From contig CAZWEM010000010.1 in assembly GCA_964632315.1 (NCBI GenBank), positions 32,001-96,000 of the forward strand: 64,000 nt of DNA. Reading direction: 5' to 3'. This stretch comes from an uncultured archaeon (GTDB lineage: Archaea > Asgardarchaeota > Lokiarchaeia > Sigyniarchaeales > SOKP01). Shown here one piece after another: positions 13,343-15,962 of the stretch. How positions within the stretch are numbered: position 1 is the stretch's first letter; the number at the start of each line of letters is the position of its first letter. The notes beneath the pieces were generated by a model. The model searched no databases. It worked only from the letters and a program-made list of their open reading frames with translations, and had not been told where the DNA came from. A program made the position numbers and the translations under genes.

Positions 13343-14380
13343 ATGAAAGCGGCTTACATTCTCAAACATGGAGATCTAAATAATTTAATCGTTGGAGATT
13401 TAGATCAACCAAATATTAGTGAAAAAGAAATTTTAATTGAAACCAAGTTCAGTGCTCTCAATCATATTGATCTTTTTATCATAAAAGGATGGCCAGGATT
13501 AGAATTGAAAATGCCTCATATTTTAGGGAGTGATGCGAGTGGAGTCGTGGCTGAAGTGGGTTCATCTGTAGCTACTGTTAAAAAAGGAGATAGAGTAGTG
13601 ATCAACCCAGGTTTAAGTTGTGGAACTTGTGATTTCTGCCTTTCTGGAAAACAGAACTTCTGTAAAAATTTTTCAATTATGGGAGAAAATCAATGGGGAA
13701 CCCATGCTGAGTACTTTGTATTACCCGAAGTGAATGCCATAAAACTACCTTTAGATGTGAATTATGAATCTGCAGCTGCTGCTCCTTTAACATTCTTGAC
13801 TGCTTGGAGGGCATTAAAAAGTCAAGCAAACCTTCAGAATGGAGAAACAATAGTTATTCACGGTGCAGGAGGAGGTGTATCTACTGCGGCTATACAAATA
13901 GCTAAATTTTTAGGTGCAACTGTAATTACCACAACAAGTAGTGTTAAGAAGGTTGAGATAGCAAAAAAATTGGGTGCTGATTTTGTGATTAATTATAATG
14001 AAGATCCAAATTATGATGCTTATATATATAAAAATATAATGAATCGAGAGGGCGTCGATGTTGTATTAGATAGCGTGGGTAAGCACACATTTAAAAAGAG
14101 TTTAAGATTGCTTAAACCGGGTGGTCGTATGATTATACCGGGATCTACCACTGGTCCGATGAGTGAAGTAGATCTTAGACAAATATTTTGGAAACAACTA
14201 GAAATTAAAGGCACAACAATGAGTAATCAAAGTGAATTTAGAGAGGTCATGAAACTAATCTTTAAGGCAAAGTTAAATCCAGTAATAGATAGAATTTATC
14301 CCTTGAGTGAGATCAAAGAAGCTGAAGAATACCTCCAAGAGGGAAAACAGTTTGGAAAAGTTTTACTGAAAATTAAGTAA
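13343..14380 (+). CDS. Zinc-binding alcohol dehydrogenase / quinone oxidoreductase (MDR family)
   Basis: PHILGSDASG, structural Zn motif CGTCDFCLSGKQNFC, GAGGGVS NAD(P)-binding motif. Confidence 0.92.
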   Translation: MKAAYILKHGDLNNLIVGDLDQPNISEKEILIETKFSALNHIDLFIIKGWPGLELKMPHILGSDASGVVAEVGSSVATVKKGDRVVINPGLSCGTCDFCLSGKQNFCKNFSIMGENQWGTHAEYFVLPEVNAIKLPLDVNYESAAAAPLTFLTAWRALKSQANLQNGETIVIHGAGGGVSTAAIQIAKFLGATVITTTSSVKKVEIAKKLGADFVINYNEDPNYDAYIYKNIMNREGVDVVLDSVGKHTFKKSLRLLKPGGRMIIPGSTTGPMSEVDLRQIFWKQLEIKGTTMSNQSEFREVMKLIFKAKLNPVIDRIYPLSEIKEAEEYLQEGKQFGKVLLKIK

Positions 14381-15051
14381 TAATTCCAAATTGGTTTCGC
14401 GTGAATTTCAATACCTTTTGCGAAATAATGGATTCAAATCCCCCGTAAAAATGGTCTGCACCCTCAATAATAAATTTTGATTTTGGTTCCATGTAAGAAT
14501 CGTAATGGAAGTCAAATCTATCAAAAGAAGCAATATTATCCTTATCTCCTTGAATAAAAAATTTAGGTTTTGTAGTTTGGGTTGATTCCTTAAATCCTTC
14601 TCCCATAAAGTCCCAAGGAAAAGATATTGCACAGAAACCTATGACTATTTCGGAATAATTGACAAGGCTACATCCAATAGCAGCTCCATACGAGTATCCA
14701 CATATTAAAATCTTATCAAAATTTTCATTAGTCAAATAATCAATGCAAGTTTTAACATCTGTTAACTCTCCATTTCCTTCATATTGTTTACCAGCTGATT
14801 TTCCTACTCCTCGAAAATTAAAACGTAGACATGAAATATTATTTGTTAGTAATTCATTAAATATGCTCGATATTACATTATTATACATATTACCCCCATA
14901 TTTTCCCTTTCCTTGAGAAAGTCAAGTGAAATTGAGGATGGGGGTGGCAAAGTAATACTATTTTATTTATTTGATTTGTCTTCTTACGAGAAATTTCAGC
15001 TTCTAAAACATTATCTTCTCCTTTAATTATTATGTTTTTAGAGTCAAGCAT
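14373..15051 (-). CDS. Alpha/beta hydrolase (HPHPxxGGxMxN family, COG2945-like), two exons 15051..14933 and 14901..14373, 215 aa when spliced
   Basis: Exon 1 reads MLDSKNIII...VLLCHPHP(Q). Exon 2 reads YGGNMYNN...RFNFRGVG...GYSYG...QGDKD...GADHF (intact Ser-Asp-His triad). Joined in frame only after removing the 31-nt insert. Confidence 0.85.
14902..14932 (-). other. Putative 31-nt bulge-helix-bulge mRNA intron
   Basis: mRNA context ACCCCCA-UCCU-CA^A-UUUC-A-CUUGA-cuuuc-UCAAG-GAAA-GGGA-AA^A-UAUGGGGGU. 4-bp central helix UCCU/GGGA, two 3-nt bulges, internal hairpin and exon-exon stem. Excision restores CAA TAT GGG GGT AAT ATG. Confidence 0.8.
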
Positions 15052-15104
15052 AATTTTAATTAAGCATCATATAATATAATAATACTACTAAATAGCTAAT
15101 AATT

Positions 15105-15962
15105 ATGAAATTTAATCCCATTGTAATAGAGAGAAAATTAAAAGAATTTATTGAAGAAGACTGTAACTTTAGTGATGTAAGTTCAGCGACTACTATAGAT
15201 GATTTATCAAAGAGTAATGCTCATATAAAAGCAAAAAGTGAAGGATATGTTAGTGGGTTAGAGGAATTGAAAATCTTATACAATTTGTTAAAAGTATCTG
15301 TCGATCTTTTAAAAGAGGAAGGTGAAAAAGTTAAAAAAGGGGATATAATAGCAAATATAAATGGTCACACGCAATCTATTCTACTTGGAGAGAGAACGGC
15401 ATTGAACTTACTAACACATATGAGTGCAATTACTACAACCACAAGAAAATTTACTGAGATTGTCAAAGAATCGGGTAAAAATGTTAAGATCGCTTGTACT
15501 CGAAAAACACTTCCAGGCCTTAGGATCTTTGAAAAAAAAGCAGTATACTTGGGCGGAGGGGAAACTCATCGTTTTTCTTTGGATGATATGGTCTTGTTAA
15601 AGGACACTCATTTAAAGTATTATAATGGAAACGTGGAAACATTATTGAAGAGAGTGAAAGAAAAGGTAAGCTTTTCAAAAAAAATAGAAATTGAAGTGGA
15701 AAATGTCCCAGATGTTGTTACGGCAGCAAGGAATAGAGCAGATATTATTATGTTGGACAATATGAGTGCTGATGAAGTCCAAAAAGCTATTGATTTACTC
15801 AAGAAGAATAAATTGCGTGAGAATGTCATAATTGAAGTATCTGGAGGCATTTCTCTCGTTAACTTATTAGATTACGTAATTTTAGAACCAGATATAATAA
15901 GTTCAAGTGAAATTACACAGTTTCCATCAGAAAAATTAGATTTATCACTTAGATTTGGTTAA
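15105..15962 (+). CDS. nadC: Nicotinate-nucleotide pyrophosphorylase (quinolinate phosphoribosyltransferase)
   Basis: GERTALN, TRKTLPG, HRFSLDDMVLLKDTH, EIEVE, IMLDNM, EVSGGI. Confidence 0.96.
   Translation: MKFNPIVIERKLKEFIEEDCNFSDVSSATTIDDLSKSNAHIKAKSEGYVSGLEELKILYNLLKVSVDLLKEEGEKVKKGDIIANINGHTQSILLGERTALNLLTHMSAITTTTRKFTEIVKESGKNVKIACTRKTLPGLRIFEKKAVYLGGGETHRFSLDDMVLLKDTHLKYYNGNVETLLKRVKEKVSFSKKIEIEVENVPDVVTAARNRADIIMLDNMSADEVQKAIDLLKKNKLRENVIIEVSGGISLVNLLDYVILEPDIISSSEITQFPSEKLDLSLRFG

What the first reader, a model, noticed from the sequence alone, without database searches (positions are those of the whole stretch)
14373..15051. Bulge-helix-bulge intron inside a protein-coding gene of an Asgard-type archaeon
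Seen in sequence: the alpha/beta hydrolase ORF in the track lacks its N-terminus. That N-terminus (ATG 15051, ...VLLCHPHPQ) lies in another frame, separated by exactly 31 extra nt (14902..14932). The pre-mRNA folds as exon stem ACCCCCA/U(AU)GGGGGU, central 4-bp helix UCCU/GGGA, 3-nt bulges CAA and AAA, and intron hairpin UUUC-A-CUUGA/UCAAG-GAAA. Established knowledge: archaeal EndA cuts after the second nucleotide of each bulge. Applying that rule gives CCT CA^A TAT GGG GGT AAT ATG = HPHPQYGGNMYNN, the conserved family motif, and a 215-aa protein with an intact triad. Unspliced, translation stops after 53 aa (TAA 14892..14890). BHB introns in mRNA are known mainly from crenarchaeal cbf5; I do not know of one in a metabolic hydrolase of Asgard archaea. 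Inference: this lineage splices mRNA with the tRNA endonuclease and ligase, which parallels eukaryotic non-spliceosomal splicing (HAC1/XBP1) and would hide genes as apparent frameshifts. The 3' bulge is closed by only one A-U pair before a 2-nt bulge, so the motif is slightly relaxed.
Basis: partly seen in the sequence, partly recalled or inferred. Interest (0 to 1): 0.96.

Follow-up and report, generated by a model that had tools for sequence, protein, structure and literature searches.

The report
tRNA-type mini-intron splits Asgard hydrolase gene
A 31-base hairpin insert that breaks an otherwise intact hydrolase gene of a Loki-type (Asgard) archaeon behaves in every comparative test like a tiny intron cut out of the mRNA by the tRNA-splicing enzymes, which papers I found report for only one archaeal coding gene (cbf5); RNA proof is still missing.

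Summary
On the minus strand, exon 1 (15051..14933) and exon 2 (14901..14373) of an alpha/beta hydrolase gene are separated by 31 nt (14932..14902). Unspliced translation stops after 53 aa. Removing the 31 nt gives a 215-aa protein with the HPHPQYGGNM motif.

The insert is not an accident of this assembly. In the genus, 25 of 42 species genomes carry one 30-, 31- or 33-nt insert at the same codon. All 24 distinct alleles share these features:
- a 4-bp central helix (UCCY/GGGA);
- a 3-nt 5' bulge and an AAR 3' bulge;
- an intron hairpin with compensatory changes.

Every allele blocks translation, yet both exons stay intact (dN/dS 0.08-0.49). An intron-less gene nested among intron bearers has exactly the predicted ligated junction. 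The genome encodes two EndA paralogues and RtcB. My own scan found similar inserts in its single-copy LeuRS gene and in an acetyl-CoA synthetase-like gene.

Best reading: a slightly relaxed bulge-helix-bulge intron spliced from the mRNA (about 0.85). No RNA data were available. Earlier notes of this scan report the same phenomenon in other genes of this genome.

The parts
14933..15051 (-). Exon 1: ATG to ...CAT CCT CA (39 codons plus 2 nt), encoding MLDSKN...KIVLLCHPHP and the first two bases of the Gln codon
   Evidence: Conserved with dN/dS 0.08-0.49 among intron-bearing relatives.
14902..14932 (-). 31-nt intron (ATTTCAC...GGGAAA). Predicted cuts lie between 14933/14932 and between 14902/14901.
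   Evidence: Homologous 30/31/33-nt inserts sit at the same codon in 24 distinct alleles.
14373..14901 (-). Exon 2: A + TAT GGG GGT AAT ATG ... to the stop codon. It encodes the alpha/beta hydrolase core with GYSYG, QGDKD and GADHF.
   Evidence: Pfam Hydrolase_4 4.7e-07, Abhydrolase_11 1.1e-06.
14935..14938 (-). 5' strand of the 4-bp central helix (UCCU, exon 1: last base of the His codon plus the Pro codon)
   Evidence: Pairs with GGGA in 24 of 24 alleles. One allele has UCCC, which turns the U-G pair into C-G. The Pro codon is CCY in 24/24 intron alleles but CCN in intron-less ones.
14932..14934 (-). 5' bulge CAA; predicted cleavage after CA
   Evidence: CAA in 23 alleles, GAA in 1.
14908..14931 (-). 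Intron hairpin: UUUC / bulged A / CUUGA - loop CUUUC - UCAAG / GAAA (helix h')
   Evidence: Covariation at pairs 25-44 (CG 9, UA 5, UG 4) and 29-41.
14904..14907 (-). 3' strand of the central helix (GGGA, intron)
   Evidence: Invariant in all 24 alleles although non-coding.
14901..14903 (-). 3' bulge AAA; predicted cleavage after the second A
   Evidence: AAA or AAG; the ligated codon is CAA or CAG, both Gln.
14892..14900 (-). 3' strand of the weak exon helix (U AU GGGGGU), pairing with ACCCCCA at 14939..14945
   Evidence: It is only 78.7% paired across relatives. A14939-U14900 is kept in all alleles.
15069..15083 (-). AT-rich TATA-like stretch about 25 nt upstream of the ATG (possible promoter of a leaderless mRNA)
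   Evidence: Read from the sequence only, with similar stretches in L131 and L133. Inference, not tested.

Best explanation
The 31 nt are a bulge-helix-bulge (BHB) intron in the pre-mRNA of an alpha/beta hydrolase gene.

Proposed mechanism:
1. The transcript folds so that the last exon-1 bases (UCCU) pair with the intron's GGGA. This 4-bp helix is flanked by a 3-nt bulge (CAA) next to a stable intron hairpin, and by an A-rich bulge (AAA) next to a weak exon helix.
2. The splicing endonuclease, here a two-paralogue and probably (alpha-beta)2-type EndA, cuts after the second base of each bulge.
3. RtcB joins the exons to CAU CCU CA|A UAU GGG.
4. The result restores one 215-aa open frame with the HPHPQYGG motif.

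Shown here: the anatomy; its conservation and covariation in 24 alleles; the block to translation in every allele; purifying selection on both exons; exact intron-less junctions; and the presence of the enzyme genes.

Inferred: that excision happens on RNA, that EndA and RtcB carry it out, and the exact cut sites. Runs of A allow the cuts to shift by 1 nt with the same product.
For: Anatomy:
- Sequence and fold are as described.
- The BHB-like conformer has -22.1 kcal/mol against an MFE of -22.9.

Distribution:
- Of 30 same-genus orthologue loci, 21 have an insert of 30, 31 or 33 nt at the same codon and 9 have none.
- A covariance model finds exactly one copy in 25 of 42 genomes of the genus.
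- No insert was seen in the orthologues examined from other families of the order.

Structure conservation:
- All 24 distinct alleles have 4/4 central pairs, an inner helix of at least 4 bp abutting the 5' bulge, and the A-U pair next to the 3' bulge.
- On the MAFFT alignment, 0 of 500 shuffles reach the covariation score, and the true register beats all slid registers.
- The model-fitted alignment gives the same result.

Coding evidence:
- All 30- and 33-nt alleles carry an in-frame stop. All 31-nt alleles shift the frame. Unspliced products are 40-54 aa.
- In-silico splicing gives 208-225-aa proteins in all alleles.
- dN/dS of exon 1 is 0.08-0.49, similar to exon 2.
- The Gly-Gly codons between the intron and the internal ATG use all four GGN codons but always encode Gly.

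Gain and loss:
- On the gene tree, intron-less L030 is nested in a clade of 16 intron bearers. Its sequence is exactly CATCCTCAA|TATGG.

Machinery and precedent in this genome:
- Two EndA paralogues and RtcB are present.
- The single-copy LeuRS gene has a 30-nt BHB-like insert with a stop. The Pfam tRNA-synt_1g profile runs 46|48 across it.
- The LeuRS insert is shared by 8 of 30 relatives. An insert in an essential gene must be removed somehow.

Not an assembly artefact:
- A Logan contig of a related strain (15 differences in 367 nt) keeps the insert without any indel.
Against: - No RNA evidence for this gene was available, so excision at the RNA level is not shown.
- The motif is not a strict hBHBh'. 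Only one A-U pair closes the 3-nt 3' bulge on the exon side. The exon helix is 78.7% paired across relatives, with two positions broken in about half of them.
- The strict 3-nt-bulge conformer is 5.4 kcal/mol worse than the MFE.
- The plain MFE and the RNAalifold consensus choose a different register with 2x2 internal loops.
- The central helix hardly varies, so it gives almost no covariation evidence.
- The related sequences are not independent, so shuffle counts overstate support.
Confidence: 0.85

Rival explanations
1. Split gene. The insert merely ends a 40-54-aa N-terminal peptide. The C-terminal 169-171 aa are translated separately from the internal AUG (YGGN-M), with the GGNGG codons acting as a Shine-Dalgarno-like site. 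The two pieces then assemble, or only the C-terminal piece works.
For: Gene callers predict exactly these 169-171-aa proteins in public data. A Met codon follows 4 codons after the insert, and GGAGG-like Gly-Gly codons precede it.
Against: - The Met and the Gly-Gly codons are equally present in intron-less genes, so they are ancestral coding features.
- The Y/F-G-G codons upstream of that AUG vary synonymously (all four GGN) while keeping the amino acids, so they are translated.
- This reading does not explain the invariant non-coding GGGAAAR, the 3-4-3 geometry, or the compensatory hairpin changes.
- In an intron-less homologue the Pfam Hydrolase_4 match runs across the junction.
Confidence: 0.05
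2. Recoding on the ribosome: frameshifting, stop read-through, or gene-60-like bypassing of the insert.
For: A stable hairpin directly follows the last exon-1 codons, as at the T4 gene 60 take-off site (my own knowledge).
Against: - No single recoding event fits all alleles. The 31-nt alleles need a frameshift, while the 30- and 33-nt alleles need stop read-through.
- Read-through would add 10-11 residues inside the conserved HPHPQ-YGG motif.
- No matching take-off and landing codons exist. Neither CAA nor CCU recurs at the 3' end GGGAAAR.
Confidence: 0.03
3. Decaying pseudogene, or assembly or sequencing artefact.
For: In one genome alone it looks like a frameshifted gene.
Against: - The insert stands in 25 independently assembled species genomes and in a further strain contig.
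- Both exons are complete in all alleles, with dN/dS well below 1.
- There are no other frame disruptions.
Confidence: 0.02
4. The insert is removed at the RNA level, but by an enzyme other than EndA/RtcB, or it is a cis-regulatory hairpin whose removal is conditional.
For: The exon-side helix is weak, so the motif is not canonical. No enzyme assay was possible.
Against: - The 4-bp helix with a 3-nt bulge on each strand is the defining EndA substrate (PMC7714728; bioRxiv 10.64898/2026.10.13.758758).
- Other inserts in this genome (LeuRS, acetyl-CoA synthetase-like gene) have the canonical form with an exon helix of at least 3 bp.
- 30-33 nt is too short for a group I or group II intron.
Confidence: 0.05

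Closest known systems
BHB intron in the cbf5 (pseudouridine synthase) pre-mRNA of Crenarchaeota (Watanabe 2002; Yokobori 2009, PMC2738675)
   Same: A short BHB intron inside a protein-coding frame that must be cut by the tRNA-splicing endonuclease and ligated. It also shows gain and loss among related species.
   Different: - A different gene (a metabolic alpha/beta hydrolase) and a different phylum (Promethearchaeota, Asgard).
- The exon-side helix is relaxed here.
- It is one of several such inserts in the same genome (LeuRS, an acetyl-CoA synthetase-like gene, probably DnaG and CysRS). Reviews up to 2020 name cbf5 as the only coding example (PMC7714728).
- Splicing of cbf5 was shown on RNA; here it was not.
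BHB intron in the 5' UTR of HVO_1309 mRNA, Haloferax volcanii (PMC7714728)
   Same: An mRNA substrate of archaeal EndA.
   Different: It lies in the untranslated leader and does not interrupt a reading frame. It was confirmed in vivo and in vitro.
Non-canonical BHB introns of Asgard tRNA genes (PMC11291895; bioRxiv 10.64898/2026.10.13.758758)
   Same: The same kingdom, the same presumed machinery (two EndA paralogues in most genomes), many gains, and relaxed motifs.
   Different: Those sit in tRNA genes. Term searches of the two papers found no mention of introns in coding genes.
HAC1/XBP1 unconventional mRNA splicing in eukaryotes
   Same: A small intron is cut from an mRNA by a protein endonuclease at stem-loops and joined by the tRNA ligase (RtcB in animals). 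Removal changes the reading frame.
   Different: The endonuclease there is Ire1, which recognises different stem-loops and is stress-regulated. I did not search for an Ire1 homologue here. This is an analogy from my own knowledge, not homology.

Membership tests
Archaeal bulge-helix-bulge (BHB) intron | [quoted passage not shown] | tested here: met
   UCCU/GGGA (4/4 pairs) with CAA and AAA bulges in the window and in 24 of 24 alleles. The strand topology matches pre-tRNA: the exon supplies the 5' strand of the central helix.
Archaeal bulge-helix-bulge (BHB) intron | Flanking helices h (exon) and h' (intron) of at least 2 bp close both bulges (strict hBHBh') | tested here: not met
   h' is 4-8 bp in all alleles. 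On the exon side only one A-U pair closes the 3-nt 3' bulge, followed by a 2-nt bulge or mismatches. It is therefore a relaxed form, of the kind broad-specificity EndAs are reported to cut (PMC5829648 abstract).
Archaeal bulge-helix-bulge (BHB) intron | Cutting after the second base of each bulge yields a functional product | tested here: met
   The result is CAU CCU CA|A UAU GGG, a 215-aa open frame here and 208-225 aa in all alleles. It is identical to the junction of intron-less orthologues.
Archaeal bulge-helix-bulge (BHB) intron | Splicing endonuclease and RNA ligase are encoded by the organism | tested here: met
   Two PF01974 genes (103 and 70 bits) and one RtcB gene (568 bits). One EndA paralogue is closest to PDB chains 3p1z_B, 3ajv_B and 2cv8_A. 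From memory, these are crenarchaeal enzymes.
Archaeal bulge-helix-bulge (BHB) intron | Excision and exon ligation seen on RNA (spliced transcript, circular intron) | not testable with these tools
   No RNA holder was listed. The one run laid consists of contigs of unknown kind that keep the insert.
Pre-mRNA BHB intron of cbf5 | Located in the cbf5 gene at its conserved site | tested here: not met
   The host gene is an alpha/beta hydrolase (Pfam Hydrolase_4/Abhydrolase_11). The mechanism is presumed to be the same, but the intron is not orthologous.
Alpha/beta hydrolase fold (host gene; Pfam Hydrolase_4 / Abhydrolase_11) | Profile match over the curated cut-off, and Ser-Asp-His motifs | tested here: met
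   Exon 2 scores 29.8 and 29.0 bits against a cut-off of 27. GYSYG, QGDKD and GADHF are visible in the translation. In an intron-less homologue the profile match runs across the junction.

The most novel reading that the evidence does not exclude
This genus of Lokiarchaeia-type Asgard archaea uses the tRNA-splicing endonuclease and ligase as a routine mRNA-splicing system. Many protein genes, including essential single-copy ones such as LeuRS, carry 29-38-nt BHB micro-introns. These are gained and precisely lost between species, and they hide genes from annotation as apparent frameshifts or truncations.
Probability: 0.65. Interest if true: 0.9.

Novelty: new member of a known kind. Interest (0 to 1): 0.8.

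Why it matters
Protein-enzyme (EndA) splicing of a coding mRNA has rested on one gene family, crenarchaeal cbf5, for over twenty years. A second case, in the archaeal kingdom closest to eukaryotes, would widen that picture, especially as it is shared by dozens of species and accompanied by similar inserts in essential genes of the same genome.

If confirmed, it would show three things:
- Interrupted protein genes and obligatory mRNA splicing exist in Asgard archaea without a spliceosome.
- There is a natural system of intron gain and exact loss that can be studied by comparison.
- Annotation pipelines systematically truncate such genes. All close database relatives are called as 169-171 aa instead of about 213 aa.

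It also bears on how tRNA-ligase-based mRNA splicing of the HAC1/XBP1 type could have arisen.

Tried and rejected
- **RNA runs.** No RNA holder was listed for window:13800-15600. The single run found (kind unknown, contigs) covers 14804-15170 with the insert present and no joint. This says nothing about expression.
- **Spliced-junction DNA.** Exact patterns for this lineage and for the commonest 33-nt clade gave 0 hits in JGI metagenome contigs. This is no evidence either way.
- **Spliced-form proteins.** Among the best 120 database relatives, every protein at least 88% identical to an intron-bearing lineage is a truncated call. The 71%-identical full-length P0004 lies on an intron-less contig with the same neighbouring genes.
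- **Genome-wide count.** A BHB-plus-ORF-restoration scan gave thousands of hits, mostly gene junctions and high-GC contaminant contigs. A decoy control that offset the 3' cut by 1-4 nt showed no excess at the true offset. The scan therefore cannot count introns. I only picked out cases confirmed by Pfam continuity.
- **MAFFT alignment of the intron alone (A2).** It misaligned the 3' ends and was dropped.
- **RNAalifold and plain MFE.** Both prefer a non-BHB register. I rejected this as the functional fold because nearest-neighbour energies penalise bulges, and because the BHB register is the one that predicts the exact junction.
- **Repeated or mobile element.** The sequence is unique in the genome. 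The weak hit at C8:86669 is in-frame PurH-like coding sequence.
- **Rfam.** No family matches 14600-15250.
Full report
**1. Observation**

- An ORF starts at ATG 15051 and reads MLDSKN...KIVLLCHPHPQ. It then runs into FHLTFSRKGKIWG and a TAA at 14892..14890, giving 53 aa.
- The hydrolase ORF that a gene caller would report starts at an internal ATG (14888) and has 171 aa.
- The stretch 14932..14902 is 31 nt long. Removing it joins CAT CCT CA to A TAT GGG GGT AAT ATG and gives one 215-aa frame.
- Exon 2 matches Pfam Hydrolase_4 and Abhydrolase_11 just over the curated cut-off, starting at profile position 12.
- In an intron-less homologue the Hydrolase_4 match runs across the junction, from the residues VLICHPHPQ onward.
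- GYSYG, QGDKD and GADHF (the Ser, Asp and His motifs) are all in exon 2.

**2. Structure**

The RNA can form the following elements:
- a 4-bp helix U14938-CCU14935 / G14907-GGA14904;
- a 3-nt bulge C14934-A-A14932 next to an intron hairpin (UUUC/GAAA, a bulged A, CUUGA/UCAAG, loop CUUUC);
- a 3' bulge A14903..A14901.

This has the strand topology of a pre-tRNA BHB: the exon supplies the 5' strand of the central helix. Cutting after the second base of each bulge removes exactly 31 nt.

On the exon side only A14939-U14900 closes the 3-nt bulge. After a 2-nt bulge, CCCCC/GGGGG follows. Energies for the 81-nt stretch:

| Conformer | Energy (kcal/mol) |
|---|---|
| MFE (z = -2.78 against shuffles) | -22.9 |
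| BHB-like, 5-nt 3' bulge | -22.1 |
| Strict BHB, 3-nt 3' bulge | -17.5 |

My relaxed BHB definition fits a given position and length at about 2.6e-4 in this genome. Here it coincides with the only position and length that restores the frame.

**3. Relatives**

The window lies in a 4.45-Mb, 119-contig assembly. Relatives' records are titled Promethearchaeota/Promethearchaeia, which belong to the Asgard kingdom Promethearchaeati.

*Distribution.* Searching 60 relatives with exon 2 gave orthologues whose open frames fall into two classes, about 179 aa and about 215 aa.
- Locating both exons showed that 21 of 30 same-genus loci carry an insert of 30, 31 or 33 nt at the same codon. Nine have none.
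- A covariance model of the element finds exactly one copy in 25 of the 42 genomes held for the genus.
- It finds only this copy in the own genome.
- The orthologues examined from other families of the order, including complete one-contig genomes, have no insert.

*Conserved geometry.* Across 24 distinct alleles, including two closer relatives fetched from metagenomes, the ends are nearly invariant: CAUCCY CAA UUU... ...RAA GGGA AAR. The hairpin interior changes with compensation, for example CUUGA/UCAAG, UAGGA/UCCUA, GGG/CCC and UUGGA/UCCAA. Every allele has 4/4 central pairs, at least 4 inner pairs abutting the 5' bulge, and the closing A-U pair.

*Covariation.*
- On the MAFFT alignment, 90.2% of cells are paired. 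None of 500 shuffles reaches the covariation score, and the given register beats all slid registers.
- Covariation is concentrated at pairs 25-44 (CG 9, UA 5, UG 4) and 29-41.
- The model-fitted alignment gives the same picture: 93.5% of cells paired and 6 pairs with double changes. It includes two spurious reverse-strand rows and leans towards the model.
- The central helix is invariant apart from one UCCC allele, so it offers no covariation.
- The non-coding GGGAAAR is fully conserved while the hairpin diverges.
- The Pro codon that pairs with it is CCY in 24 of 24 intron alleles. In 34 intron-less genes it is CCT 13, CCC 12, CCG 5 and CCA 4. The genes are related, so I give no statistical test.

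**4. Is the gene alive?**

- Every 30- and 33-nt allele has an in-frame stop in the insert. Every 31-nt allele shifts the frame. Unspliced products are 40-54 aa.
- Removing the insert gives 208-225-aa proteins with conserved N-termini (…LEAE.F…CHPHPQYGG) in all alleles.
- Pairwise dN/dS for the last 30 codons of exon 1 is 0.08-0.49 among intron bearers. For exon 2 it is 0.08-0.27.
- The Y/F-G-G codons between the insert and the internal ATG use all four GGN codons yet always encode Gly. They are therefore translated, which a restart at the internal ATG cannot explain.

**5. Gain and loss**

On a maximum-likelihood tree of 65 proteins the intron label is strongly clustered. It needs 5 changes, well-supported branches force at least 3, and shuffled labels need 19.8 on average. 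One intron-less gene (L030) is nested in a clade of 16 intron bearers. It reads CATCCTCAA|TATGG, exactly the predicted ligation product. This is the pattern of a real intron with precise losses, or of repeated gains.

**6. Machinery and precedent in this genome**

- The genome has two EndA paralogues (207 and 205 aa) and one RtcB.
- One paralogue is closest to PDB chains 3p1z_B, 3ajv_B and 2cv8_A. The other is closest to 1a79_A.
- Two paralogues are what a preprint takes as the signature of the (alpha-beta)2 architecture in Asgard genomes (bioRxiv 10.64898/2026.10.13.758758).
- That EndA type is reported to cut non-canonical introns (PMC5829648 abstract).

My own BHB-plus-frame scan picked out four other cases:

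| Gene | Place in G000 | Insert | Pfam check |
|---|---|---|---|
| LeuRS | C41:26285, minus strand | 30 nt | tRNA-synt_1g profile 46 then 48 across the insert |
| Acetyl-CoA synthetase-like | C25:821, minus strand | 32 nt | AMP-binding profile 211 then 215 across the insert |
| DnaG | C16:66178, plus strand | 38 nt | Only exon 2 has a Pfam hit (Toprim) |
| CysRS | C11:68616, minus strand | 37 nt | Only exon 2 has a Pfam hit (tRNA-synt_1e from position 203) |

LeuRS is single-copy in this genome. Eight of 30 same-genus orthologues share a 29-30-nt insert with a TAA at the same codon, and 22 have none. An essential gene broken in this way implies that the lineage removes such inserts. That raises the prior for the hydrolase.

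Earlier notes of this scan report the same phenomenon in other genes of this genome: histone, E2, gyrB, a chelatase and dnaG. The gyrB note claims an environmental RNA contig that lacks the insert. I independently re-found only the dnaG case and could not check the RNA claim.

**7. Rivals**

- *Pseudogene or artefact.* Excluded by sections 3 and 4, and by a second-strain contig that keeps the insert without an indel.
- *Ribosomal recoding.* It would need different mechanisms for different alleles. There are no matching take-off and landing codons.
- *Split gene.* It does not explain the conserved BHB geometry or the translated YGG codons.
- *Another RNA-level excision enzyme.* This cannot be excluded without biochemistry.

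**8. Literature**

Searches of the held library found coding-frame BHB introns only for crenarchaeal cbf5 (PMC2738675), plus a 5'-UTR intron in Haloferax (PMC7714728). PMC7714728 states that cbf5 was the only further example to date. Term searches of the two papers on Asgard tRNA introns found no mention of introns in coding genes.

**9. Verdict**

RNA-level proof is missing. As a kind it is known (a BHB intron in a pre-mRNA), so this is a new member. Its lineage, its spread across a genus, and its company of similar introns in essential genes make it of high interest.

Noticed in passing
G000:C41:26255-26284 (minus strand; locus L035): The single-copy leucyl-tRNA synthetase gene is split after PMGYD by a 30-nt canonical BHB-like insert with a TAA (central helix UAUG/CAUA, bulges AUA and AAA). 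The Pfam tRNA-synt_1g profile runs 46 then 48 across it. Eight of 30 same-genus orthologues share a 29-30-nt insert at this codon. Two other species (G035, G009) show stops and 30 extra nt elsewhere in the same gene.
   Followed up: partly
G000:C25:788-819 (minus strand; locus L036): An acetyl-CoA synthetase-like gene (ACAS_N plus AMP-binding) is split in the motif YCTA|DIGWITGHSY by a 32-nt BHB-like insert (central helix CAGC/GCUG, bulges AGA and AAA). The Pfam AMP-binding profile runs 211 then 215 across it.
   Followed up: partly
G000:C16:66180-66217 (plus strand; L037) and G000:C11:68578-68614 (minus strand; L038): Probable further BHB inserts: 38 nt in dnaG (GAIFGQ|TEGLL) and 37 nt in cysteinyl-tRNA synthetase (exon 2 starts at Pfam tRNA-synt_1e position 203). 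The upstream pieces are too short for a Pfam hit, so neither is confirmed.
   Followed up: partly
Public protein collections (P0001-P0003, P0059, P0091, P0092, P0109): Orthologues of intron-bearing lineages are stored as 169-171-aa proteins that start at the internal Met. One cluster holds 70 member sequences. Gene callers therefore systematically truncate this gene.
   Followed up: yes
G000, 19 contigs with G+C above 42% (140,569 bases; for example C80, C103, C105, C106, C112): High-GC contigs sit in an otherwise 33% G+C assembly. They are probably contamination (the stated contamination is 8.57%). They produce many false 'open frames' in any frame-based scan.
   Followed up: no
window 13343-14380 (+) and 15105-15962 (+): The flanking genes are kept next to both intron-bearing and intron-less orthologues in metagenome contigs: a zinc-type alcohol dehydrogenase overlapping the 3' end by 8 nt, and a divergent QRPTase/nadC-like gene 53 nt upstream. 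The locus is therefore syntenic.
   Followed up: partly
G000:C8:86669-86735 (minus strand; L137): The only other covariance-model hit in the genome (E 0.19) lies in continuous coding sequence with a GGPxMxRAAAKN motif, which looks PurH-like. It is a chance resemblance, not an intron.
   Followed up: yes
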